NCBI GenBank assembly: GCA_028288385.1
Contig: JAQBNX010000047.1
Span: forward strand, 1 to 33,826
Direction: 5' to 3'
DNA from: Spirosoma sp.
GTDB lineage: Bacteria; Bacteroidota; Bacteroidia; Cytophagales; Spirosomataceae
DNA: 33,826 bases
Positions 1 to 12,825 of this stretch are shown here, piece after piece (the first letter of the stretch is position 1; each line of letters opens with the position of its first letter). The notes under the pieces are model-generated. The model saw only the letters and a program-made list of their open reading frames with translations. It was not told the origin of the DNA and did not search any database. The position numbers were made by a program, and so were the translations under genes.

Positions 1-999
1 TACGGAACGGTCATTAAGCCGCTTTCCAATCGGGATGAATACGATATTGATCTGGTTTGTAGACTTCTAATTAACCAACATGCGGTATCCCAGCAGAGCC
101 TAAAAAAGATGGTAGGCGATCGGTTGAAAGCCCATAAGGATTATTTGCGCATGCTGGATGAAGAAGGTAGGCGATGTTGGCGATTGGATTATAACGAAGC
201 CGAACGATTTCATATGGACATTTTGCCCGCTATTCCAGATACATATGACTGGTTGTTACTGGCTGGAGTACCCGTAGAACTGGCTCAACATGCACTTTGC
301 ATTACCGATCGCGAAACATGGGGAACAGACATTGATTGGCCCAGAGCTAATCCGGAAGGATACGCCCGCTGGTTTTATTCACGGATGAGCGTTGCATTTG
401 CCCTGGCACAGCAAACGCTGGCCAATGAGATGCGGATGAAGGTAGAAGATGTACCTGCACACCGGGTAAAAACAGTCCTTCAGCAGGTTGTACAATTACT
501 GAAACGTCACCGGGATATCATGCTTGGCGATGATGAAGATAAACCAATATCAATAATTATCACGACGCTGGCTGCCTGGGCATATCAAAATGAAACGGAT
601 TTGCTTTCTGCAATGAAGAACATTTTAGCCGCGATTCCCAGCTTAATCCGTTTTGAGCGAGGTGTGTTTATTGTTGAAAATCCAGTCAATCCATTAGAGA
701 ATTTCGCTGATAAATGGGAAGGTAACCCAAAGAAAGCTGAGAAATTTTTCACCTGGGTTAATCAGGCTCAGCTTGATTTTAACAAGTTAGACAAGTTACG
801 AGGCTTACCAAATGTAGCCGTCAATCTAAAAGCGCATTTTGGTGAAGATATTGTCACCCGGGCCCTAAATTCCTTAGGTGATGAGACACGCCAAGTACGG
901 GAATCAGGAAACTTGTCAATGGATCGGGGTACGGGCTTGTTGTCAGGTGCCGCAGGCGGCATCAAAGTTTCCAATCACCATTTTTATGGCTCACGATAA
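1..999 (+). CDS. CBASS cyclic oligonucleotide synthase (CD-NTase/SMODS), CdnG-like; 5' end lies outside the window
   Basis: Frame 1 is open from base 1 (YGTVIKPLSNRDEYDIDLVC, carrying the DxD catalytic motif). Later motifs: RCWRLDY..FHMDILPAIP (third Asp), NPEGYARWF, LLKRHRD..DDKPISIIITTLAA and NPVNPLENFADKW. The C-terminus is HHFYG-SR. The ORF track start at 109 is internal. The clade call is from memory of the family. Confidence 0.9.
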   Translation, partial: YGTVIKPLSNRDEYDIDLVCRLLINQHAVSQQSLKKMVGDRLKAHKDYLRMLDEEGRRCWRLDYNEAERFHMDILPAIPDTYDWLLLAGVPVELAQHALCITDRETWGTDIDWPRANPEGYARWFYSRMSVAFALAQQTLANEMRMKVEDVPAHRVKTVLQQVVQLLKRHRDIMLGDDEDKPISIIITTLAAWAYQNETDLLSAMKNILAAIPSLIRFERGVFIVENPVNPLENFADKWEGNPKKAEKFFTWVNQAQLDFNKLDKLRGLPNVAVNLKAHFGEDIVTRALNSLGDETRQVRESGNLSMDRGTGLLSGAAGGIKVSNHHFYGSR

Positions 1000-1387
1000 A
1001 GGGCAGCGGGTGCCATTACCTACTCAGGGTGAATTGCTATGCCGGGTTATGCCAGGCAGCAAATTCACTCTGCAGCGGGACGAATTACGCTGGTGGGGGT
1101 GGGTCACTCCGAGCCTTATCAGTCTGACCTATAAAGTTAGGTTGACATACCGTATTGGCCGTCGGCCTGCTGTACAGGTCATGGATCCTTTGCTAACCAC
1201 CTTGCCCAATGTTACTCTTCCCCATACGTATGATGGGGAAGAACTATGCCTTTATTTTCCTGATGGGAAAGAATGGCATGACGGGATGCTTCTGGCTCAC
1301 CGTGTTCTTCCCTGGATTTCAGAATGGTTATACCACTATGAAATCTGGCTGGTTACCAAACAGTGGAATGGCGGAGGAATTCATTGA
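986..1387 (+). CDS. Stand-alone prokaryotic E2 (ubiquitin-conjugating-like) protein of type II-short CBASS, 133 aa
   Basis: LPHTYDGEELCLYFP (His...catalytic Cys) and C-terminal WISEWLYHYEIWLVTKQWNGGGIH. The ATG at 986 overlaps the cyclase 3' end and is preferred over the track start at 878. Confidence 0.8.
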   Translation: MAHDKGQRVPLPTQGELLCRVMPGSKFTLQRDELRWWGWVTPSLISLTYKVRLTYRIGRRPAVQVMDPLLTTLPNVTLPHTYDGEELCLYFPDGKEWHDGMLLAHRVLPWISEWLYHYEIWLVTKQWNGGGIH

Positions 1388-1461
1388 CTTCCAACGCTGA
1401 AAAATGTATGATTTAGCCGAAAGGCTAGTGTTAAAAGCTATACCATCTACTAACTAATTCA

Positions 1462-2508
1462 ATGGCAGACTTACAAACCCAGTTCGAGCAGTTTAATAAG
1501 ACCATTTGTTTGGGCCGTTTTGAGGAAGAGCAGACTCTACGGGATAAACGCGACATTGTACGTAAAAAAATCGAGGATTATCTTCCAGCCGTTTTTGAAA
1601 AATATGGAGAAACATGTCCAGAGTTTTACTTCCGTAACCAGGGTTCTTATGAGCTGGGAACAGGGATAAAGCCTTTGAACGGTGATTACGACATTGATCA
1701 GGGACTTTATTTTTTATGCAGCAAAGAGGATTATCCTGACCCGGTTACGTTAAAGAAACGAGTCCATGAAGCCTTAGAGGGTCACACGAAAGATGTTCGG
1801 ATTCGCCGTCCATGCGTGACTGTATTTTATCAGAAAAATGGTGAATATGTCTATCACGTTGATATCGCTATTTACTCAGCCGGGAATGTAGATGGAAAGA
1901 CCTATCTGGCTACAGGTCGACTGAATTCATTAGCTATTAATCGAGAGTGGCTTGCGGATGACCCAGCCACATTGGCTAAATTACTTAGCGAACGTTTTAG
2001 TGGCAATGACCGTAAGCAATTTCGACGTATTCTACGCTATCTAAAACGTTGGAAAGACTTTAATTTTAGCAAGGCTGGCTTTGCCTCTCCACGTGGTGTT
2101 GCTCTTTCCGTGGCTGCTTACTACTGGTTTTCCCCAGCTTATACGGACTGGTTCAGTGGCAAAATGAATGACTTAGGGGCTCTAAAATCCTTGGTCAAGG
2201 CTATGATTGATAATTTCCAGACTATTTCCTGGGTTGATTCTATTCGACGTCTGACGGTTAAATTACCTGTCGAACCAAATAATGATCTATTCGCCAAGAT
2301 GACCGATAACCAGATGAAAACGTTTGAACAGAATTTAACAGATCTTTATGTTATGTTGGTTAACGCTGAGCAGGATGCGGATCCAGTGACTGGCAGCCAA
2401 TCGCTACAAAACAAATCATTTGGTGCTGATTTTCCAGTACCTGCGAAAACCCAGACGGCTCAACGTTCTGCGACCACGGGTATAGTTGGGGTACACGAAT
2501 CAGCGTAA
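1462..2508 (+). CDS. Second CBASS CD-NTase (SMODS), CdnB-like, 348 aa
   Basis: QGSYELGTGIKPLNGDYDIDQGL (GS...DxD), HVDIAIY and RYLKRWKD. Extended C-terminal tail ending in HESA (terminal Ala, compatible with Cap2 conjugation). Confidence 0.92.
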   Translation: MADLQTQFEQFNKTICLGRFEEEQTLRDKRDIVRKKIEDYLPAVFEKYGETCPEFYFRNQGSYELGTGIKPLNGDYDIDQGLYFLCSKEDYPDPVTLKKRVHEALEGHTKDVRIRRPCVTVFYQKNGEYVYHVDIAIYSAGNVDGKTYLATGRLNSLAINREWLADDPATLAKLLSERFSGNDRKQFRRILRYLKRWKDFNFSKAGFASPRGVALSVAAYYWFSPAYTDWFSGKMNDLGALKSLVKAMIDNFQTISWVDSIRRLTVKLPVEPNNDLFAKMTDNQMKTFEQNLTDLYVMLVNAEQDADPVTGSQSLQNKSFGADFPVPAKTQTAQRSATTGIVGVHESA

Positions 2509-2511
2509 AAA

Positions 2512-4254
2512 ATGACTAGCAGCCCCAATCCGGAGTTAGAAACAATAGTACATAAATTACTTGAAGCAGGAAGTTTATCAGGAACATGGGTGCGTCTTAT
2601 ACCCTTACCTCGGTTGTACAAAGAGCGGGGAGCAGAAGCAGCTATACGGGGAGAGATAGATATTGATGGACAACCTATTATGGTAGATGTTGGATTCAAG
2701 TCGTCTTTTCCACTCAGTGTACCACTTGTTTATATCCAACCTGCCAATGCGCTTGGCTTTATTCCCCATCTTGAAGCAGATGGTTATGCGTGTTACGTTA
2801 GAGGGGATGGTCAGTTCGTAAATTATCATCAGCCAGCAGCTGTGGTCCGGGATGCTTTACAAAGAACCAGAGAAACCTTGTCACGCGGGTACCGGGGAGA
2901 AAATACGGTCGACTTCACAGACGGATTCGCAGAATACTGGAGCCGTTTACCTAACACAGGGTGGATACAATCTCTGGTAAAACCGTCAGAATCGTTTAAG
3001 AAAATCATTCTGGCTACAGGTTCGCCTAACAAGAAAAAACAATCAATTTACTTAGCCGACGACGAGCAAACGATTCGCTCGTTTTCCCCCCAATTGCGGG
3101 ATGAGGTATTTAATGTAAAAAAAGCATTCTATGTTCCTCTGGAAAAGGGAATACCTTTAATTCCGCCCTCTTTTGGCGCAATGTGGTCTCTTCAGGATAT
3201 TCATCAGATTATCAAATTACATACATCCGAAAAAACAAAACACAATCTCCAGCGCGCTACGCGCAAGTGGAAATCAGTTGAGACAGTTATTCTTGGATTG
3301 CCCCGGCCAGGCGGTGACTGGGCTTTATTCGGCATTACGTTTTCTGGGGTACAATATGCTTATCCACTTTGTGAAGCTTCATTGGTTCATAAAATACAGC
3401 CAATTATTCTGGACCGTCTGGATCGGGGCTATTTAATGGCGCGCGGAGGTAGTTCATTGAACTTACAAACCAAACATGTCGCTATAATTGGTTGTGGATC
3501 AGTTGGTGCATCTGTGGCAGTAGAATTAGCACGATCGGGAGTAGGACGTCTGACGTTAGTTGATAAAGACGTGTTAAGTGCAGAAAATGTCTTTCGCCAC
3601 CCTGTTGGTCAATATGCAGTTGGGTTGTCAAAAGTAGACGCAGTTAAGAGCGATTTGGAACTTCGGATACCCTACATTCGGGTAACTGCTATTGCTGAGC
3701 GAATCGAAACGTTGATCCGTACAAAGAAATTTGCCTGGTCAGACTTTGATTTAATTGTTATTGCAACCGGCGAACCAACAATAAACCTATATTTAAACGA
3801 GTCTCTCCGGAGAAGAAAATCCAGCCCACCAGCGCTTTATACGTGGTTAGACCCCTATGGTATCGGTGGACATACATTACTTGAGCAATATCATGACCAG
3901 CCCGGCTGCTTACAATGTATTTATGAGTTTACGGAGGATGGTTATTTAGCCAATCGGGCTTCTTTCGCCTTACCAGGCCAATCATTTCTGAAGGATTTAG
4001 CTGGTTGTGGCAGCTTGTTTACGCCTTTTGGATCATTAGATGTGCTGCGTACAGCCGAACAGACAGTGCGCATGGCCTTAAATTCTTTAGCCGGCAAAGG
4101 ATCTAACCAAATTTGTTCCTGGAAAGGTGATAGTACCATTTTCCAAGAAGGGGGTTTTCAACTCACTTCCCGATATGAATCTACGGAACAGGAGTTAATT
4201 AATCAGCGGACGTCTTTTCATCGTACTGATTGTCCCATTTGTCATCTTAACTAA
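2512..4254 (+). CDS. cap2: CBASS Cap2 E2-E1 (ThiF) fusion ubiquitin-like transferase
   Basis: N-terminal E2 motif IPHLEADGYAC. ThiF/E1 motifs IIGCGSVG and DKDVLSAENVFRH, Zn ligands CLQC and CPIC, and GCGSLFTPF. Starts 3 bp after the cyclase. Confidence 0.9.
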   Translation: MTSSPNPELETIVHKLLEAGSLSGTWVRLIPLPRLYKERGAEAAIRGEIDIDGQPIMVDVGFKSSFPLSVPLVYIQPANALGFIPHLEADGYACYVRGDGQFVNYHQPAAVVRDALQRTRETLSRGYRGENTVDFTDGFAEYWSRLPNTGWIQSLVKPSESFKKIILATGSPNKKKQSIYLADDEQTIRSFSPQLRDEVFNVKKAFYVPLEKGIPLIPPSFGAMWSLQDIHQIIKLHTSEKTKHNLQRATRKWKSVETVILGLPRPGGDWALFGITFSGVQYAYPLCEASLVHKIQPIILDRLDRGYLMARGGSSLNLQTKHVAIIGCGSVGASVAVELARSGVGRLTLVDKDVLSAENVFRHPVGQYAVGLSKVDAVKSDLELRIPYIRVTAIAERIETLIRTKKFAWSDFDLIVIATGEPTINLYLNESLRRRKSSPPALYTWLDPYGIGGHTLLEQYHDQPGCLQCIYEFTEDGYLANRASFALPGQSFLKDLAGCGSLFTPFGSLDVLRTAEQTVRMALNSLAGKGSNQICSWKGDSTIFQEGGFQLTSRYESTEQELINQRTSFHRTDCPICHLN

Positions 4255-4746
4255 ATGGAAACGAAGTGCTCTGATTTACTATTTGCTGACAATATAGGGA
4301 ATTTCAAATTACCCGGGCTAGTGGTCAATCAGATGCATCGATACAGGCAGGTAAAATCTAATATGCCCGAATCCGGTGGTTTGTTACTGGGTCGTTTTAT
4401 CATAAATAGCCCGGATGTTGTGGTTGATGAAATTACGACGCCATTACCTACCGATCGGAGTAGCCGGTTTCATTTTCGGCGTGGATCTTATGGCCACCAG
4501 CAAGTAATAAATGACCGTTGGTTTCAAAGCGATGGGACTTGTAACTACCTGGGCGAATGGCATACACATCCTGAACCTAATCCCGTACAATCGACGCTTG
4601 ACATTGCGAGTTGGCAGATGCAACTAGATCGCTTACCTGCAAACCAGAATGAATTGTTTTTTGCCATCCTCGGCACAAGTTCCATTGCTGTTTGGAAAGC
4701 ACTTCGTCAGCCTTTTTCCTATTATCAACTTATTCTGCTACCCTAA
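4255..4746 (+). CDS. cap3: CBASS Cap3 JAB/MPN deconjugating isopeptidase
   Basis: ESGGLLLG and YLGEWHTHPEPNPVQSTLD (E...HxH...S..D JAMM motif). Abuts cap2. Confidence 0.92.
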   Translation: METKCSDLLFADNIGNFKLPGLVVNQMHRYRQVKSNMPESGGLLLGRFIINSPDVVVDEITTPLPTDRSSRFHFRRGSYGHQQVINDRWFQSDGTCNYLGEWHTHPEPNPVQSTLDIASWQMQLDRLPANQNELFFAILGTSSIAVWKALRQPFSYYQLILLP

Positions 4747-4757
4747 CAAATACAGGT

Positions 4758-6560
4758 ATGACAACTGCCACAAACGTAATGATTATACGCCAGTCAGGTT
4801 TGCGGGCTATAAGTGAGAACGAAGTACTGGAAGTTTTTAGCAAAGATGAAACACGTTTGGCGCAGCACCCTGTCCTGGTGGATATGCAAGCATATCCAAT
4901 TGAAGGGGGGGATTGGACTGAATCAGAAGGCTATATACTTAATGAAGCGCGTAAAATCCGTGAGTATGCGGACCAGAAAAAAAATGTTAAGATTGCCTAT
5001 TTTGGTATAGCTGAAGTGCCACATATTATTGCGCTGGGTGCATTTTTAAGTGATCAGTACCACGTGGATGTTTTTGGATGGGATCGCGATAAAAACTCCT
5101 GGGAATGGCGGGCAACTGAGAACACGCTTAATGTGGTTACGAATGATTGGCCTAAAATTGTACTTCCATTGACGGGTTCAGCAATTATTCGTGTCGAGCT
5201 ATCTGCTTTTGTTGCTGATGCAGATGTAGAGGAAGCTGTTGGCAAAGATCATTTAGCTGATATCCGGATTCATCTTGGAGATGGACGTACACCAATGATT
5301 GGAGCTGGTATCGTTCAGTCACCAGCTGATGTACAACATGTACGGGAAACTTTCCGGCAAGCATTAGCGGAACTTAAGCAGTATCGTCCGAATGTAAATT
5401 TAATTCATTTGTTTGTTGCCGCTCCTGTGCCAGTTTGTTTTGTAATTGGACAGGAACTACAGCTACGGAACAATATTCCCATTCAAACGTATCGATTCCG
5501 TATAGTCCCTGATCAGCCATCACAAAAAAAAGCAATCTATCTCACTGGCGAAGAAGCAGAATCCGCCACCAGAACACTAACGCCGAAGCAGAAAGCGAGA
5601 GCGCGAAAAATTCGTACAAACATCTGGCCTGAAGTTCTGAAACAAGTTCAGCATTATGCCGAGACCAGGAAACGGGAAGCTCGCGACCAAAAGCGTATTT
5701 GGTTCGAGTATCTAACTAATCATGAAGACCTAATAATTGCCAATCCATTTCCCCGGCTTCCACCTATCTGGGAAGTTGTTGATCTTAAAGACACCGTGAG
5801 TAATCACCCAAGACCTACTGAATATGGGCATCCTACTGATTCAAATGAATGGGAATTAAGCGATTCACTGCTTATTGATTTATCGAATGCCTGTCGCGAT
5901 GATGATGAATTGAAACAACTCATCCGATTATTCTTATTCCACGAATATCTGCATATCCACCATTCGCTTAATAAATACAATGTAGAGCTGATTGGCAGAT
6001 TTGCCAACTGCCTGGAAAAGCTTGATTATGAGGCAGATTTATACGCATTGCTGCATCAACTTGACTATACATTATTCTATGAACCGGAGAAAGCGAAAAA
6101 ACGGGAAAAAGAATTTCTGGAAGAACAATTAGATCTGATTCTTCGATCTACCTGGGCATTCGTACAGGGAGCAACGGTCAACCGACCGCAGGTAAGGGCA
6201 GTCAGGCGTTTGCTAAACTGGTATTGGCGTCATGTTCAGGTTCAGCGGGCCGACAGACTCGTCGTTGCACTGGCTGTCCTATCAAAAGCCCCTACTATCG
6301 AATTAATAGGCCCCATGCTATCTGTTGGGAGTAGCCGGGTCTATATGTCCATGGTTGACCTTGATAAAACTGTGGAATTGTCATTGGGTATAGTCTTAGA
6401 AAACGAGAAATTTCTCCGGCGTGAAGATGCAGTTAATTTTAGTTTGAAGAAGTTGTTAGATGCCTTTCGAACTCGTGATCATAATTCGATTAAGAAGTTC
6501 TTTTTAGGCATTTTTGAAGAAGCGAAAGAGAAGAGCGGATCGCTTCCTGCTATAGATTAG
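4758..6560 (+). CDS. CBASS effector: N-terminal SAVED domain plus C-terminal HEXXH zinc-metallopeptidase-like domain, 600 aa
   Basis: SAVED half-motifs IAYFGIAEVPHIIALGAFL and IHLFVAAPVPVCFVIGQEL. C-terminal LFLFHEYLHIHH...LEKLDYEADLYAL. ATG at 4758 is preferred over the TTG at 4692, which overlaps cap3. Confidence 0.8.
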   Translation: MTTATNVMIIRQSGLRAISENEVLEVFSKDETRLAQHPVLVDMQAYPIEGGDWTESEGYILNEARKIREYADQKKNVKIAYFGIAEVPHIIALGAFLSDQYHVDVFGWDRDKNSWEWRATENTLNVVTNDWPKIVLPLTGSAIIRVELSAFVADADVEEAVGKDHLADIRIHLGDGRTPMIGAGIVQSPADVQHVRETFRQALAELKQYRPNVNLIHLFVAAPVPVCFVIGQELQLRNNIPIQTYRFRIVPDQPSQKKAIYLTGEEAESATRTLTPKQKARARKIRTNIWPEVLKQVQHYAETRKREARDQKRIWFEYLTNHEDLIIANPFPRLPPIWEVVDLKDTVSNHPRPTEYGHPTDSNEWELSDSLLIDLSNACRDDDELKQLIRLFLFHEYLHIHHSLNKYNVELIGRFANCLEKLDYEADLYALLHQLDYTLFYEPEKAKKREKEFLEEQLDLILRSTWAFVQGATVNRPQVRAVRRLLNWYWRHVQVQRADRLVVALAVLSKAPTIELIGPMLSVGSSRVYMSMVDLDKTVELSLGIVLENEKFLRREDAVNFSLKKLLDAFRTRDHNSIKKFFLGIFEEAKEKSGSLPAID

Positions 6561-6615
6561 TTGAAATTGAACTAAAATAGTGACTATTTTGTGTTTTTAC
6601 CACAACGAAACCGCT

Positions 6616-7992
6616 ATGTTAGTTCATTTCCGAATTAGAAACTTCATGTCTATCCGCGACGAGCAGATCTTTAGTCTCGTTGCCGTTTCCGGTTTAAAAG
6701 AGCAACAAGAGCATTTATCTAATAATTTGATAGTAGCCACTGGAGAGCTTGATGTATTACGGTCGGCAGTCGTATACGGAGCTAACGCTAGTGGCAAGAG
6801 TAACTTGCTACGGGCCATAGAATTTTTCATTGATAGCATCACACTTGCCCCTCCAACCGGCTCAGCAGTTAGTTCGTACAGTCCCTTTGTGCTTGATCAG
6901 AAATCGCCCGGCGAGCCCACTTTATTAGAAGCCATATTTGTTATGAATAATGTGGTTTATCGATATGGGTTTGAAGTGCAACAGCAAGCTGTTATAGCAG
7001 AATGGCTCTTTATCCGGCGCAAACAGGAAACGTATGTTTTCGACAGGTCCAGTGTTGAGCTACGCATAAACAGACCTTACAAAAAACTGATCGAACTTCA
7101 GAATAACAAAATGGTAGCGCAGACAGCACTGCTACTAAATTTAGGGGCGCTATTTAATGACGAAACCTGTCAAACTGTTCAGAACTGGGCATCCGATGTA
7201 CGTTGTATACAAGGAACGGAAGACTATCAATTCCGAGATTACACTATTCAATATTTAGAAAAACCCGAGAACAAACAACGTATATTAAATCTGTTACGGG
7301 ACGCCGATCTAGGGATTGAAGATATTGAACTAATACGACCTGAAAAAAAGACATTAACCGAGGTTGTGGTAAAACCAACTAAATTTTATGGAGGAGACTG
7401 GATTCCATCAAATCCAACTGCATTGACTGAATACCTTCAAGGCTCTTATAGGATGAAGACGAGCATCCAAAATATTGGATTAAAATCAACCAGGGTATTC
7501 TGGGATGCGAGAACAAGTCAATTTAAATCCATATCGATGCCATTCAATTCGTTTGAATCCCAAGGCACCCAAAAATTTTTTAATCTTATAGGGCTTATCC
7601 TATGGCATTTAGACAATGGCGGTGTTTTGATTGCAGATGAATTAGATACGAAACTGCATCCACTATTGACGCAACGAATAGTGCAGCTATTCAACAGTTC
7701 TTTGACCAATCCCCGAAACGCTCAGTTTGTATTTGCCACGCACGATACCAATTTATTAAGTGCTGGCCTTTTTAGGCGGGACCAGATTTGGTTTACAGAA
7801 AAGGATAGTCTTGGGGCTACTCAACTTTATGCGCTTACCGACTACAAACCTGGTGGTAAAACTGTTCGGAACGATGAACAATTAGAAAAAAATTACATTG
7901 CCGGAAAGTATGGGGGCATTCCCTATCTAGGCAACTTTGATGCTCTTTTTGAACGAGATCCAATGGCAGAAGAAATCCCTGCACATGAGTAA
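6616..7992 (+). CDS. AAA_21/ABC-type ATPase, RloA/AbiLi-like
   Basis: FRIRNFMSI, Walker A GANASGKS, signature ESQGTQK, Walker B IADELDTKLHP, ATHD and RRDQIWFTEK. The ATG at 6616 is the likely start. Confidence 0.88.
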   Translation: MLVHFRIRNFMSIRDEQIFSLVAVSGLKEQQEHLSNNLIVATGELDVLRSAVVYGANASGKSNLLRAIEFFIDSITLAPPTGSAVSSYSPFVLDQKSPGEPTLLEAIFVMNNVVYRYGFEVQQQAVIAEWLFIRRKQETYVFDRSSVELRINRPYKKLIELQNNKMVAQTALLLNLGALFNDETCQTVQNWASDVRCIQGTEDYQFRDYTIQYLEKPENKQRILNLLRDADLGIEDIELIRPEKKTLTEVVVKPTKFYGGDWIPSNPTALTEYLQGSYRMKTSIQNIGLKSTRVFWDARTSQFKSISMPFNSFESQGTQKFFNLIGLILWHLDNGGVLIADELDTKLHPLLTQRIVQLFNSSLTNPRNAQFVFATHDTNLLSAGLFRRDQIWFTEKDSLGATQLYALTDYKPGGKTVRNDEQLEKNYIAGKYGGIPYLGNFDALFERDPMAEEIPAHE

Positions 7993-8617
7993 ACCATCGC
8001 ATAGGGAATACTCAATCCATCGGAGGCCTGCATTTCGTCCTGAACGAGAGTCCTTTCTTATTTTGTGTGAAGGTGAAAATACAGAGCCTCTATACTTCAA
8101 TGCCTTTAGATTGACAACGGCTACCGTTCGAGCATTACCTGTTACAACAGGTGATGCCATGGCAGTAGTGCAGGCTGCGATCAAACGTCGTAAGATTGAG
8201 AATAATAATGGCAAAGAATATGACCATTATTGGGTGGTTTTTGATCGGGATGAGACACCTTCAGAAACTTTTAATAACGCCATTAGAGTGGCACAATCAA
8301 TTGGTTTTCAGGTAGCTTATAGCAACCAGGCATTTGAACTGTGGTTTTTACTACACTATGACTATGTATCGGGTCCACTGCATCGAAACCAATATGCAAA
8401 TCGATTAGGCGATTTGATTGGCTTCCTCTATAGCAAACATAAAGATACTGCACGCATAATGTTTCAGGTACTACTGGAGCGACAACAACTAGCGATTGAG
8501 AATGCCCAGCGTTTATATGCCCAGTATGACAATGGATCAGGTTACCGAAACCCGGCTGAAGAGGAATCAAGTACGACTGTTTATCAATTAGTAGAAAAAC
8601 TTAGATCATTCATGTAA
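7985..8617 (+). CDS. rloB: RloB/AbiLii-like TOPRIM-fold protein
   Basis: LILCEGENTEPLYF, WVVFDRD, AYSNQAFELWFLLHY and STTVYQLVE. Overlaps the ATPase stop by 8 bp. Confidence 0.88.
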   Translation: MSKPSHREYSIHRRPAFRPERESFLILCEGENTEPLYFNAFRLTTATVRALPVTTGDAMAVVQAAIKRRKIENNNGKEYDHYWVVFDRDETPSETFNNAIRVAQSIGFQVAYSNQAFELWFLLHYDYVSGPLHRNQYANRLGDLIGFLYSKHKDTARIMFQVLLERQQLAIENAQRLYAQYDNGSGYRNPAEEESSTTVYQLVEKLRSFM

Positions 8618-9004
8618 TCGAGCTATAGATGGACTAGACTGTTCAGTTAAACCTCATTATGTCCGAAAACGTTGAACGATTAAACTAAACGGGTTTATTG
8701 GACGCAAAAAGGCCCGTTTTTGGCTTCTTCCCTCCTACTCTATTACAGTTCACAAAAACCTCTGATTAATTGCCCTCAAGTTTTTTGCTCATTAGCTGGG
8801 TATGCGCTGGATGTTAGTCGTTAGGCGATTTATCAATGTATCAAGGGGTAAGGCCCTGTCTAATCAGGATGGGAAAGGTATCGCGTTCGTGGTCGATGCG
8901 CTGGTGATCAGGCGGCAAGAGCCGGTTCACTTTTTCACCAGTACGCTGACTACCTGACAAAAAATCCCCGTTTTTCAGGATATACATTTAATGCAAATCG
9001 CTTT

Positions 9005-10228
9005 TTACGCCTCCTCCTGAGAGGCGTGATCAGGCCATTGTTCGAGTAAGAAATCGGCTAAGTCGGCACCCATGGCTCGTTCCTGCTCCGTGGCATTATC
9101 TTCCAGATAGCTCGAAACCGTGATCGCAAACCCATCCCCTACCAACTCACCCGCTACCCGATTCCAGCGATCAAACGCACGCCTGTCAGTCGACAGATCA
9201 GGAAACAACTCAATGCGGCGACCCCGTAAGGGGGCCAATCGTTCCGCATTCAAATACGACAATGCGCCCACGGCCATCCAGATAAAGCCCGGAAAATAAG
9301 CCGTACTGATAATAGCCGTTTTGGGTGCTTCGACGATGGCAACGGGCTGGTTGGCATCGGCGGTTAAGAGTTGCGGCAAGCCGAAGAGGCAAGGGGATTT
9401 TTGCACCTCATTTCGCTCATCCAGATAGGCCATCAGCCAGGCGGGATAGGGTTGCTGTAGGGCATCGCACCGTCGGGCATAGGCCGAATGGACCCAGGTG
9501 GTGCGGCTGCGTTTTTCGCCTGCTTTAATCACGTATTTGACCGTGTGAAACGTCTCGTCAAAGAGTTTGATCTGTCCGCCCCGGATGCGTTGCTGCTCAT
9601 CAATATACCAGAACACACAGGCCCCGGGCCAACGTCCAGACGTGCCTATGTTGAAGCGTTTTAATAGTTGGTCGGCCACGGTATCCCCAAAATGACGCGC
9701 TAACAGGCGGGCTAACTGATTGCGGTCATAATGGCCCAGGGACTGGGTAAACACCTCCTCGGGAATGGTGTAAAGCGGGCTGATTTGACGGGTTGGGATA
9801 CCCATTACGGGCTTAAGGGGTCGGTTCGCGGTCGATGATTGGTCAAAGACGAAGTTGGCAACCCATTCCGCCTGCTCGAGTCGGGCCCCTTCTAATTGCA
9901 TCAGATGGGCGATGATATCCCCTTTCAGGATGCCCTTATGCTTCTGTCGAGCCGCCATGGTAAACCATGCCTTTGGGATTGGGCCAACATGAGCCTGGTC
10001 GTTAACCTGCTTGGCATACGATTGACCGGAGGGGCCTTTGTGGTAGGGATTGAGGTGATAGCCACAGTTGCTTTCCCGATCGCAGCGGCCGTAGGCGTCG
10101 GGCAGGAGTTGGCCGGTTTGGGTGTCGATGTAGCGACTCAAGGTTTTGCGGTGTGTTTGGCCGCAACTCGGACAATCGGATTTGATGGCTTTTTTGGGTA
10201 GCTGATAGCGGAAGATATGGGCAGGCAT
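9005..10228 (-). CDS. DUF6371-type primase-like protein (Zn-ribbon plus TOPRIM-like)
   Basis: CPSCG...YGRCDRESNCGYHLNPY Zn-binding N-terminus, VFWYIDEQQRIRGGQIKLF, CLFGLPQL, VAIVEAPKTA and IELFPD. ATG at 10228 is preferred. Confidence 0.75.
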   Translation of the reverse strand: MPAHIFRYQLPKKAIKSDCPSCGQTHRKTLSRYIDTQTGQLLPDAYGRCDRESNCGYHLNPYHKGPSGQSYAKQVNDQAHVGPIPKAWFTMAARQKHKGILKGDIIAHLMQLEGARLEQAEWVANFVFDQSSTANRPLKPVMGIPTRQISPLYTIPEEVFTQSLGHYDRNQLARLLARHFGDTVADQLLKRFNIGTSGRWPGACVFWYIDEQQRIRGGQIKLFDETFHTVKYVIKAGEKRSRTTWVHSAYARRCDALQQPYPAWLMAYLDERNEVQKSPCLFGLPQLLTADANQPVAIVEAPKTAIISTAYFPGFIWMAVGALSYLNAERLAPLRGRRIELFPDLSTDRRAFDRWNRVAGELVGDGFAITVSSYLEDNATEQERAMGADLADFLLEQWPDHASQEEA

Positions 10229-10486
10229 GTGGGTAAAATTCAAAGAATGATTCCAACTCTATTTCGGGTCGCTTTTTGGCCCTTTAACCAAGAAGCCGTT
10301 CCCCAGGAACGCATGGCTTACGGATAAAATGCCTGAGTCGACCCCGGGGTAAAACTCAAAAAAAGCCCCCGTCAAACCTAGCCGGACTTTCCGCTGCTCA
10401 GGTGCTCCATTCTACACACACCCCAGGAGAGTTGATCCAGTGCTTTGGGGTTATCAATCCCCTTGACCAGCGCGCTGCTTCGATGA

Positions 10487-10753
10487 TCATTCGGAATCGG
10501 TATCCATGTTTAACCGATCAACCAAGCTAAAACCCGCTAGATAAGGCGTTAAGGCCACCGTGCTCCGAAAGGCGCGACACCCCGTTATTTGATTCAGGCG
10601 GGGATGGTAACGAACCTCGACCCAAAAGGCATCAATGGCATAAAGATTCAGTAGATAGGGACCTTCCCGGCGACTGACCACGAAATTACTTCGTTCCCAG
10701 ACGGCACTGAGTTGAGCAGTTTCCGACAAGCGATTGAATTCATACAAGGTCAT
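10487..10753 (-). CDS. Hypothetical protein of a small family common in Cytophagales, 88 aa
   Basis: ATG start and MTLYEFNRL...LYAIDAFWVEVRY pattern. Sits in the intergenic gap with the same orientation as its neighbour. Confidence 0.65.
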   Translation of the reverse strand: MTLYEFNRLSETAQLSAVWERSNFVVSRREGPYLLNLYAIDAFWVEVRYHPRLNQITGCRAFRSTVALTPYLAGFSLVDRLNMDTDSE

Positions 10754-11061
10754 ACCTGAAGGAGTCTCGATATATCCGACATAGAGGGCTCATACAGGTG
10801 GATGAGAGCCTCAAGAACGAAAATAGTCAACATTCATCAGATTCAATTATCTAAAAGAAGCATATATGTTGAGAAAAGTTGATGTGCCAGAGCACTGGAT
10901 AATACCAGGGTTTGCAAATACCACGAGGTAAAAGAAGAACTGTTTTTGAGTTGGAGTTTAATCCGGAAGGTATAAGGTCTACTGAAATCTTTGTTTTAAA
11001 GAGTAAGCTTGCTACAGTGAGGATCCACGCTTCATTATTTTTCTTCCCTCCTAACTGAGTA

Positions 11062-11123
11062 ATACATTTTTACAATTATATAAAATCATGATATTATGAT
11101 TTTATATAATTGTAAAAATGTAT
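11062..11123. repeat. 62-bp near-perfect palindrome (28-bp arms, 6-nt centre)
   Basis: ATACATTTTTACAATTATATAAAATCAT-gatatt-ATGATTTTATATAATTGTAAAAATGTAT; the arms are exact reverse complements. Confidence 0.95.
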
Positions 11124-12110
11124 ATTTGTGAATATTTACTTTATAGCCAACCCCTAGAAGATTATTAATAAAAACAATGGATAATTAAACATGTAATATG
11201 TAAATAATAAAATAGTACCCGTAAGTAAGAGCAAGAAGTGATATAAATACTTAAAATGTTTTTCAACATAAATGTTATTTTATAAAATAACATAATAATA
11301 AAATAACCTTTTATATAATTACCTGATAAACAGTAGATAATATAGCAAATAGTTAATTTCGAGCCAATTCTGATAAGCAAAAACAGACGAGTACTCGCAG
11401 ATGGGCAACTAATCACACTGGAGGTAGATAGGACTGTGAAAATCTATGGGGAGAGGGAGCTTATTGACGTTTTGATGCGCATAATGTCCGCTTTTATTAC
11501 CGCAAAAGTATACTCTTAAAATACCTGTACTCTAACAGGGTTATGCTACGCATCGCCAGACGGTAGGACTCCCCCACCCTACTGCCAGCACATCCGGAAC
11601 TAGAAAATTACACCTTAGCTGCCATAAATTTTTTCAATCTGGCTATCACTATCAGAAGTTGAAATAATTCATTTGGCTCTGGTTCCTATTGGCACAGCTA
11701 GGCTATTTATTTGCGATTGGCTCTGACCAACGGCTGATCACTTTGTACAGGGTAACGGAAACAATCGACAAACGCCACAGCCTTGATAAAATACGGATTG
11801 CCCGATCAGGCTATGATCCCTCCTGGTATCCTAAACGGTAATAGATGTCAACCCGCTATATGAACCATTTGAAGGAAATCCAGAGGGCAACATAACAAAC
11901 AGCTTTTTAGCGTCGACTTTATTAGCGGCCTGTTAGTAGGAATGAGTAGCGTCGCTAAGACACTACGGGATTATAGAGTTCGTGATCAATTTACAGTCAA
12001 AAACAGATCCTGCATTGGATTGACAAAAGGTTGAAAATTCGTAAGGGAAAAAAAGCCTTCATCTCACTAAATAAATCTTATTGACTTTTTTCTTTCTTTA
12101 AATTTGTGTG

Positions 12111-12162
12111 ATTATATATAATTGTGAAATAATATATTTTAATTTTCACAATTATATATAAT
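12111..12162. repeat. Inverted repeat with 19-bp arms and a 14-nt spacer
   Basis: ATTATATATAATTGTGAAA (12111-12129) and TTTCACAATTATATATAAT (12144-12162). Confidence 0.9.
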
Positions 12163-12230
12163 TATTATTTTGTGATTATATGATTTCACGCACACTGTCA
12201 AATACACTTCGAGATTGGAGTTGAGGTAAG

Positions 12231-12376
12231 TGTGAAAATATAAAAATGTTATTCTATAAATATTAAAAATAATATTAGTGTAAATATGTAATCACTAAGG
12301 ATACAGTAGGGGATGAGTGCTTATTTTCTTCAAAAGAAGTAAAGTGTTATATTGTATAAATATAATTATGTAATTT
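12231..12376. repeat. Arrays of degenerate 8-bp-phased repeats (T(G/A)TDWWWW-like)
   Basis: TGT/TAT starts at 12231, 12239, 12247, 12255, 12279 and 12287, and again at 12345, 12353, 12361 and 12369. Confidence 0.6.
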
Positions 12377-12697
12377 GATATTTTATCAAAATAACAATTT
12401 GCTCCTGTTTGGATGTAATCGTCTCTGTTTCAGTATTATTAAGGATTTGTATCATACTAGAATGTATAGTTCAGCCAGTCCTAGCAAATACAACCAGGTA
12501 ACGTTCAGGGTAGTAACCTACGACCAAAGCTAATTACTTGAAAAGGCCCAAGAGCTAAGCGATCTTACCAATAGAATCAGTTTTTATTTAGTGAAACATA
12601 CACTACTGCTTCTTCACTAAAGGAGACTATGGCCGGTTTTCCGCCGAAAGAGAGTGTTTGTGTTCTGTACACTGGTTTTGCCTCCTTACTTTTATCT

Positions 12698-12825
12698 GAG
12701 CAAGATAGAACAACACAGGACGTTGTTAATCAGCAGCATAGCTGCTTTTTTCGTTGTTATTTGTAGTAAATACTTTCACAATGTATTGTCAATTAGTATG
12801 TTAGGTTAATTATTTTACTACAAAT
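12698..12825. promoter_or_regulatory. Candidate oriT / mob operator region
   Basis: Lies immediately upstream of the mobC-relaxase pair. GAGCAAGAT is followed by an AACAAC/GTTGTT inverted repeat (12709-12727) and a 12-bp perfect inverted repeat ATTTGTAGTAAA (12759-12770) / TTTACTACAAAT (12814-12825). The nic site was not identified. Confidence 0.4.

What the first reader, a model, noticed from the sequence alone, without database searches (positions are those of the whole stretch)
1..6560. Two different CBASS cyclases in tandem, each with its own ubiquitin-like conjugation machinery
Seen: cyclase 1 (FYG-type tail) with a stand-alone E2, a 74-bp gap, then cyclase 2 (tail HESA) with Cap2 (E2-E1), Cap3 (JAB) and the SAVED effector, all co-oriented. 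Established: CBASS operons normally have one CD-NTase. E2-only (type II short) and Cap2/Cap3 (type II) are alternative architectures. Inference: these are either two stacked systems or a composite system in which two second messengers feed shared or complementary effectors. That could give redundancy against phage Acb nucleases or sponges, AND/OR gating, or cross-conjugation by E2, Cap2 and Cap3. Only one effector is in the window; the first module's effector may lie upstream.
Basis: partly seen in the sequence, partly recalled or inferred. Interest (0 to 1): 0.78.

Follow-up and report, generated by a model that had tools for sequence, protein, structure and literature searches.

The report
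Two complete CBASS systems, stacked
Genes for two known types of bacterial anti-phage alarm system (CBASS) sit back to back here, and a 91-96% identical copy in a cultured Spirosoma appears to carry a separate DNA-cutting killer gene just upstream for the first one, so they likely work as two independent, swappable cassettes rather than as one new two-signal system.

Summary
The genes are real and intact: CdnG-type cyclase + E2, a 74-bp gap, then CdnB-type cyclase, Cap2, Cap3 and a SAVED-HExxH peptidase. The window starts at a contig end. In Spirosoma fluminis the same six proteins (91-96% identical) have consecutive accessions, and the next one upstream is an HNH-SAVED (Cap5) nuclease, so the first module very likely has its own effector.

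Each module also occurs alone (G176, G202). S. knui keeps module 1 at 84-86% identity but its peptidase is 55% identical, so module 2 was likely swapped. This genome holds a second stack (C488) with a type III system in front. The stack is not a one-off: 6 of 7 non-source runs bridge the gap. Two-cyclase neighbourhoods were 1 of 31 in a phylum sample.

Verdict: two known CBASS types, repeatedly stacked at a mobile-element cargo site, likely acting in parallel. The scan noted other stacked CBASS loci on other DNA. Open and testable: shared messengers, the uncharacterised peptidase, and deletions that turn stacks into new cyclase-effector pairs (G322).

The parts
1..999 (+). CD-NTase 1, clade G, E2-CBASS type; 5' ~62 codons off the contig; D15/D17/D73 and tail Gly330 (HHFYG-SR)
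   Evidence: PADLOC PDLC00780 E 3e-114; profile hits 9woo 5.7e-93 and SmCdnG 8hsb 6.9e-65; residues invariant in 9 of 9 aligned; 93% to full-length P0143
986..1387 (+). Stand-alone E2, 133 aa; H80, C88, H133; ends at the His, with no lysine tail
   Evidence: PADLOC PDLC00863; SmE2 8hsb_B E 2e-17, aligned to its H87/C101/H152; H80 and C88 invariant in 16 of 16
1388..1461 (.). 74-bp gap; likely left junction of the second cassette
   Evidence: bridged by contigs in 6 of 7 non-source runs; junction inferred from spacer comparison
1462..2508 (+). CD-NTase 2, clade B, 348 aa; QGSY, D77/D79/D134; flexible tail ending in Ala
   Evidence: PADLOC PDLC00795 E 1e-114; 8ysc/8ysd E 5e-73, 7ljo 6e-13; residues invariant in 8 of 8
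2512..4254 (+). Cap2, E2-linker-E1 fusion, 580 aa
   Evidence: Prok-E2_B 1e-16 and ThiF 9e-20; PADLOC E1-E2 2e-164; motifs located (roles recalled)
4255..4746 (+). Cap3, JAB isopeptidase, 163 aa; E39, H103, H105, S113, D116
   Evidence: Prok-JAB 2e-07; PADLOC JAB 3e-46; NF050170 97 bits, under its cut-off of 200
4758..6560 (+). Effector: N-terminal SAVED sensor + C-terminal HExxH...E metallopeptidase-like domain (H395, E396, H399, E420), 600 aa
   Evidence: SAVED 4e-34; PADLOC Peptidase 1.4e-80; motif invariant in 36 of 36; model pLDDT 89.8; SAVED part closest to Cap5 SAVEDs, Z 24.9-28.4
6567..6578 (+). 12-bp spacer element that in C488 starts 2 bp after the E2 stop; likely right junction of the second cassette
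   Evidence: junction is an inference
6616..7992 (+). AAA_21 ATPase (AbiLi-like), third defence module
   Evidence: Pfam 8e-32; PADLOC AbiLi 2e-94
7985..8617 (+). RloB-like protein (AbiLii-like)
   Evidence: Pfam RloB 5e-44; PADLOC AbiLii 6e-29

Best explanation
This is a stack of two CBASS cassettes, an E2-type module (CdnG + E2, whose Cap5 nuclease gene likely lies just beyond the contig start) followed by a Cap2/Cap3-type module (CdnB + SAVED-peptidase), which likely act in parallel, each cyclase tuned by its own conjugation enzymes and signalling to its own effector. Shown: genes, domains, conserved catalytic motifs, stand-alone occurrence of each module, unequal divergence of the modules. 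Inferred from characterised relatives: E2 (C88/H80) would clip CdnG after Gly (HHFYG-SR) and hold it as a thioester, and lacking a lysine tail would favour CdnG polymers; CdnG would make 3'2'-cGAMP, and Cap5 would degrade DNA. Cap2 would conjugate the C-terminal Ala of CdnB to a target and Cap3 would reverse this; the CdnB signal would switch on the zinc peptidase, which would cut an essential host protein. Either arm alone would stop the infection, so the benefit would be wider phage coverage. The second cassette likely entered between E2 and the AAA gene of an older Cap5-CdnG-E2-AAA-RloB locus on a conjugative element.
For: (1) Upstream effector: S. fluminis WP_460983236 (HNH-SAVED, PADLOC Endonuclease 2e-150, AsCap5 7rwk 1e-98), -235 CdnG, -234 E2, -233 CdnB, -232 Cap2, -231 Cap3, -230 SAVED-peptidase, -228 RloB, all on a 111,465-bp contig. 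S. knui WP_460979348 HNH-SAVED precedes -349 CdnG. 24 of 32 other CdnG+E2 loci have an effector directly beside the pair, 14 of them HNH-SAVED upstream. (2) Module 1 alone with AAA-RloB in G176 (CdnG 68%); module 2 alone in G202 (CdnB 65%, tail GTHESA). (3) S. knui against the window or S. fluminis: HNH-SAVED 86%, CdnG 84-85%, E2 86%, peptidase 55%; its peptidase is 90% identical to that of the stand-alone G202 cassette and groups with it at 100/100. (4) On C488, G069 and L048 the partner is a type III system placed in front. (5) The spacer element that follows the E2 stop in C488 follows the peptidase stop here. (6) Tails differ as the two chemistries require and do not differ between paired and lone copies. 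Cap3 is described as highly specific for its cyclase tail (10.1101/2022.03.31.486616).
Against: The pairing recurs more than background: 7 of 11 CdnG loci from 300 family genomes had a second cyclase (3 of the 7 from one genus) against 1 of 31 in the phylum sample. Near-identical peptidases sit with three different cyclase clades: type III in C488, CdnG only in G322 (96% identical) and CdnB only in L004 (88%), which fits shared messengers. The peptidase's SAVED domain is closest to Cap5 SAVEDs. Gene adjacency in the two Spirosoma isolates rests on accession order, not on DNA that I read, and the three genes between E2 and the peptidase in S. knui were not identified. No product, ligand or transcript was measured.
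Confidence: 0.67

Rival explanations
1. Cross-wired signalling: conjugation stays module-specific, but both cyclases make 3'2'-type cyclic dinucleotides that both SAVED effectors read, so either phage trigger fires a nuclease and a protease together.
For: A SAVED-peptidase + HNH-SAVED block (80% nucleotide identity over 2,973 bp) is shared by C488 (type III cyclase + CdnG) and L004 (CdnB only). G322 keeps the peptidase intact with CdnG alone after two deletions. HNH-SAVED is paired with CdnB-type cyclases in L002 and L147. The top five fold matches of the peptidase's SAVED are all Cap5. The closest solved relative of CdnB is likely the Deinococcus CdnB, which I recall as a promiscuous maker of 3'2'-c-di-AMP (recalled, not read).
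Against: L004 and G322 may carry orphaned effectors left by deletion. The two SAVED domains are only about 22% identical. Each module survives alone.
Confidence: 0.23
2. Chance neighbours in a defence hotspot, with no selective value to the pairing and one module decaying.
For: Modules are exchanged and lost: G322, L004, and run X2, whose contig departs from the window 5' of position 554 (one contig, depth 3). GC is 43-47% against 51% for the transfer genes.
Against: 7 of 7 non-source runs carry pieces of both modules and 6 of 7 bridge the gap. Listed variants fall on third codon positions in CdnG (31 of 40), CdnB (12 of 17) and Cap2 (20 of 23) (only the listed rows of cut tables). At least three separate builds of the pairing exist.
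Confidence: 0.05
3. Integrated machine: the tail-less E2 transfers CdnG onto CdnB or another module-2 protein, or Cap2/Cap3 act on CdnG, giving AND-type gating.
For: This E2 lineage lacks the lysine tail that accepts the cyclase in SmE2 (K151/K159): 6 of 30 E2s end within 3 residues of the His, and all 6 are of this lineage, so its thioester cargo may go elsewhere.
Against: The lone G176 module has the same tail-less E2. In SmE2, K159A shifts the product to cyclase polymers and keeps immunity (10.1101/2022.05.25.493364). The partner module is interchangeable, and in C488 has no Cap2/Cap3. CdnB ends in an Ala tail, not a Gly motif.
Confidence: 0.05

Closest known systems
E2-CBASS (type II short): Serratia marcescens CdnG-E2 (PDB 8hsb; PMC12948482; 10.1101/2022.05.25.493364)
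   Same: Clade G cyclase of about 394 aa with a sub-terminal Gly; E2 with His/Cys/His
   Different: Effector here is likely Cap5, not 2TM-SAVED; E2 lacks K151/K159 and the tail; followed directly by a second CBASS
CdnG-Cap5 systems of Asticcacaulis, Lactococcus and Vibrio (10.1101/2021.08.31.458341; PMC12804361; PDB 7rwk, 9woo)
   Same: HNH-SAVED + CdnG + third small gene, classed type II (short); 3'2'-cGAMP signalling
   Different: Product not measured here; the Cap5 gene is outside the contig and seen only in relatives
Type II CBASS with Cap2/Cap3 (E. cloacae, V. cholerae; 10.1101/2022.03.31.486616) and the CdnB of the PDB 8ys* series
   Same: Cyclase with flexible small-residue tail, E2-E1 Cap2, JAB Cap3
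   Different: Effector is a SAVED-HExxH peptidase, catalogued in PADLOC (PDLC00754); my searches found no study of it
Myxococcus xanthus DdvS island (PMC11506125)
   Same: Two CBASS systems in one defence island, shown to defend against a phage
   Different: There type I + type II, separated by regulator genes and with CRISPR-Cas; here type II short + type II head to tail with a 74-bp gap

Membership tests
E2-CBASS (type II short) | CD-NTase with catalytic Asp triad, mostly clade G | tested here: met
   D15/D17/D73 invariant; CdnG structures are the best hits; GS motif is off-contig but present in P0143
E2-CBASS (type II short) | Conserved Gly at or near the cyclase C-terminus | tested here: met
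   G330 invariant in 9 of 9
E2-CBASS (type II short) | Stand-alone E2 with catalytic Cys and His | tested here: met
   H80, C88, H133 align to SmE2 H87, C101, H152
E2-CBASS (type II short) | Own effector gene | tested here: inconclusive
   Not in the window or found elsewhere in this 71%-complete assembly; next accession upstream in two close relatives is HNH-SAVED
E2-CBASS (type II short) | Covalent cyclase-E2 link and messenger synthesis | not testable with these tools
   needs biochemistry
Type II CBASS (Cap2/Cap3) | CD-NTase with extended tail ending in a small residue | tested here: met
   D77/D79/D134 invariant; ends in Ala or Gly in 8 of 8
Type II CBASS (Cap2/Cap3) | E2-E1 fusion Cap2 | tested here: met
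   Prok-E2_B + ThiF; PADLOC 2e-164; no PDB sequence hit at E 1e-10
Type II CBASS (Cap2/Cap3) | JAB peptidase Cap3 | tested here: met
   Pfam and PADLOC hits with E, HxH, S, D motif; under the NCBIfam equivalog cut-off
Type II CBASS (Cap2/Cap3) | Cyclic-oligonucleotide sensor-effector | tested here: met
   SAVED over cut-off; fold Z 28.4, rmsd 2.4, 246 aligned to 8ysq
Lit / Peptidase_U49 or gluzincin-type metallopeptidase (effector C-terminal domain) | HExxH plus downstream Glu zinc ligand | tested here: met
   H395, E396, H399, E420 invariant in 36 of 36
Lit / Peptidase_U49 or gluzincin-type metallopeptidase (effector C-terminal domain) | Family profile or fold match | tested here: inconclusive
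   No Pfam peptidase hit in 36 members; Atlas feature score 0.92 to clusters with 21% U49 members; selecase Z 6.2, rmsd 3.7, 108 aligned. Works like one; membership not shown
   G176 and G202 hold single modules; identities and peptidase tree are incongruent
   needs biochemistry

The most novel reading that the evidence does not exclude
The stack is a cross-wired CBASS mesh and an evolutionary workshop: a Cap5 nuclease and an unstudied SAVED-zinc protease form a two-effector core that reads signals from interchangeable cyclases (clade G with a tail-less E2, clade B with Cap2/Cap3, or a HORMA-controlled type III). One cell would have two independent phage sensors feeding both killing routes, and simple deletions, as caught in G322, would yield new working cyclase-effector pairs.
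Probability: 0.23. Interest if true: 0.7.

Novelty: new variant of a known kind. Interest (0 to 1): 0.4.

Why it matters
As read here it is a modest result: two known CBASS types stacked, for which there is precedent. Its value is as a natural test set. Close relatives supply each module alone, three paired builds and two half-deleted hybrids, so one can ask directly whether co-resident CBASS systems are insulated or share messengers, and how new cyclase-effector pairs arise. It also supplies a SAVED-metalloprotease effector whose ligand and substrate I found no study of, and an E2 that naturally lacks the lysine tail.

Tried and rejected
Upstream DNA in this assembly: no contig overlaps the window start and no second HNH-SAVED besides C488's was found (71% complete); run X1's pieces start at position 22. 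No RNA holder listed. Promoter scan: a 10/12 sigma-70-like site at 1384-1412, but 17 found against 16.7 expected, and this phylum uses other promoters (recalled); no terminator in the gap. Gap hairpin z -0.59. Neither shows separate transcripts. Complex prediction E2 + CdnB: no answer, score 0.00, not evidence either way. Single-sequence fold of the peptidase domain: pLDDT 44.5, not used. Peptidase relatives: none in viral contigs, 0 of 400 order genomes, only weak SAVED hits in plasmids. Three genus hits to CdnG at 31-34% were not examined. S. knui's three middle genes were not in the 90% clusters of the G202 proteins, so they stay unidentified. L124 was dropped from two-cyclase counts as one split gene. 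The CdnG tree is a quick tree without bootstrap. Rfam: nothing. Literature searches for dual-cyclase CBASS and for SAVED-metallopeptidase found no description; subscription papers and supplements (such as the CBASS classification tables) were not seen and may list such loci.
Full report
Observation. The window is the start of contig C845 of an 874-contig, 71%-complete assembly, so cyclase 1 lacks about 62 codons. PADLOC assigns cyclase, E2, cyclase, E1-E2, JAB and a 'Peptidase' effector, followed by an AbiL-like AAA and RloB pair. Cyclase 1 matches solved CdnG enzymes. Cyclase 2 matches the 8ys* series and 7ljo; PMC12804361 (passages) names 7LJO as CdnB and lists a Deinococcus wulumuqiensis CdnB, which I infer is the 8ys* series because 8ysq is titled as that organism's Cap5. 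Catalytic motifs are intact in all six proteins. Downstream lie relaxase, coupling-protein and Tra genes of a conjugative element; the CBASS genes are 43-47% GC against 51% for the transfer region.

The missing effector. No other contig extends the window. Cluster look-ups found the same six proteins in Spirosoma fluminis at 91-96% identity, with accessions WP_460983235 down to -230 on one 111,465-bp contig, RloB at -228, and an HNH-SAVED at -236. That protein scores 2e-150 on PADLOC's endonuclease model and 1e-98 on Asticcacaulis Cap5. S. knui shows HNH-SAVED, CdnG, E2, three unidentified locus tags, then a SAVED-peptidase. Adjacency here is inferred from accession order; I did not read that DNA. 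Of 32 other CdnG+E2 loci, 20 have an effector directly upstream (14 HNH-SAVED) and 4 directly downstream.

Is the pair conserved? I laid 8 of the 17 listed runs. Leaving out X1, a possible source, all 7 carry pieces of both modules at roughly 90-93% identity and 6 bridge 1388-1461. Listed variants are mostly at third codon positions: CdnG 31 of 40, CdnB 12 of 17, Cap2 20 of 23 (tables were cut). These copies are one lineage, not independent origins. Background: 30 of 400 phylum genomes had a PF21654 hit; of their 31 neighbourhoods (up to 10 kb each side, some cut by contig ends) 1 held a second cyclase. CdnG loci were richer: 7 of 11 in the family sample, 3 of them from one genus, and 6 of the 28 metagenome loci of 10 kb or more (7 of all 80; counted by hand).

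Are the modules one unit? No. G176 has HNH-SAVED-CdnG-E2-AAA-RloB alone; G202 has CdnB-Cap2-Cap3-peptidase alone. In S. knui module 1 is 84-86% identical to the window or S. fluminis while the peptidase is 55% identical, and 90% identical to the G202 one, grouping with it at 100/100. This genome's contig C488, G069 and L048 carry a third build: type III cyclase, HORMA-sized gene, TRIP13, peptidase, HNH-SAVED, CdnG, E2, AAA, RloB (the HORMA label is from size and position, with no PADLOC hit at 1e-15). A 12-bp element that begins 2 bp after the E2 stop in C488 begins 6 bp after the peptidase stop here, which fits insertion of module 2 between E2 and the AAA gene.

Mechanism. For module 1 I rely on the Serratia system (PMC12948482, first two of four parts read; 10.1101/2022.05.25.493364, passages): E2 clips the cyclase after a conserved Gly and links it by thioester or isopeptide. 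The E2 here keeps H80, C88 and H133 but stops at the His, without K151/K159; in Serratia K159A favours cyclase polymers and keeps immunity. 3'2'-cGAMP and Cap5 activation are taken from 10.1101/2021.08.31.458341 (abstract start and passages). For module 2 I rely on 10.1101/2022.03.31.486616 (passages): Cap2 conjugates the cyclase C-terminus, and Cap3 cleaves it with high tail specificity. The effector folds well (pLDDT 89.8); its sensor is closest to Cap5 SAVEDs and its C-terminal half has an invariant HExxH...E motif with only weak leads to Lit/U49-like and minigluzincin peptidases. That Lit cuts EF-Tu is recalled. I commit to parallel, cognate signalling (0.67); every biochemical step is inferred.

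What argues for cross-wiring. G322 is a C488-type stack with two deletions, of about 2.4 kb (type III cyclase to most of TRIP13) and 1.0 kb (HNH-SAVED), leaving an intact peptidase next to CdnG-E2. L004 (Fibrella forsythiae, named) has both effectors with CdnB alone. So peptidases 88-96% identical sit with three cyclase clades. These could be orphans or working hybrids; I give shared messengers 0.23. Cross-conjugation gets 0.05, since the partner module is interchangeable and the lone G176 module has the same tail-less E2.

Novelty. Both modules are known types. Two CBASS in one island is published for Myxococcus xanthus (PMC11506125, passages), and this scan has noted other stacked or two-cyclase loci on other DNA (unchecked notes), though none like this sequence. 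I found no paper on this pairing or on the peptidase effector; 10.1101/2023.05.21.541620 and PMC10419184 (passages) added nothing. Papers and supplements outside the library may list such loci. New variant of a known kind; interest 0.4.

Noticed in passing
L001 (G000:C488) 3668-12751, - strand: A second stacked CBASS locus in the same genome: type III cyclase, HORMA-sized gene, TRIP13, SAVED-peptidase, HNH-SAVED, CdnG, E2, AAA, RloB, with a divergent HTH/metallopeptidase regulator (PADLOC RmrA-like). Same order in G069 and L048.
   Followed up: yes
L047 (G322) 1-6287: Collapsed stack: two deletions leave SAVED-peptidase + CdnG + E2 + AAA + RloB, a possible newborn cyclase-effector pair.
   Followed up: partly
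L031, L033, L034, L036, L049, L038, L039, L138: A short 284-295 aa cyclase (best PADLOC model PDLC00774 in the 5 tested) with no conjugation tail recurs downstream of CdnG-E2; in 5 loci no effector of its own was recognised, in 3 one patatin lies between the two cyclases. Several lie among genes that look like a type I restriction operon (not tested). A better candidate for a true two-cyclase system than this window.
   Followed up: partly
window 8666-8770: A 75-110 bp intergenic element with copies on 9 other contigs of this genome (78-90% identity), just after RloB here and on C488; relatives' similarity breaks at about 8657. No Rfam hit. Possibly a mobile-element end or recombination site.
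   Followed up: partly
window 986-1387: E2 lineage without the lysine tail (6 of 30 E2s end within 3 residues of the last His; 21 of 30 have a lysine in the tail).
   Followed up: partly
window 6616-8617: AbiL-like AAA ATPase + RloB pair follows CBASS genes in the window, C488, G069, G176, G322 and L048.
   Followed up: partly
window 9005-30376: Conjugative element: DUF6371 primase-like, MobB-like relaxase, coupling protein, Toprim, TraG/TraM-like genes.
   Followed up: no
L064 8789-11341: One 850-aa ORF joining an HNH-SAVED region to a CdnG-type cyclase: effector-cyclase fusion or an assembly error.
   Followed up: no
L086 4491-9725; L123 4991-11347; L081 9806-13543; L100 2338-7240: Other multi-cyclase loci, including three cyclases in L086 and a Cap2/Cap3 system stacked on a CdnG system in L123.
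   Followed up: no
window 1-553 (run X2); P0121, P0122: Partial loss in relatives: one contig departs from CdnG 5' of 554; two proteins are N-terminally shortened peptidases.
   Followed up: no
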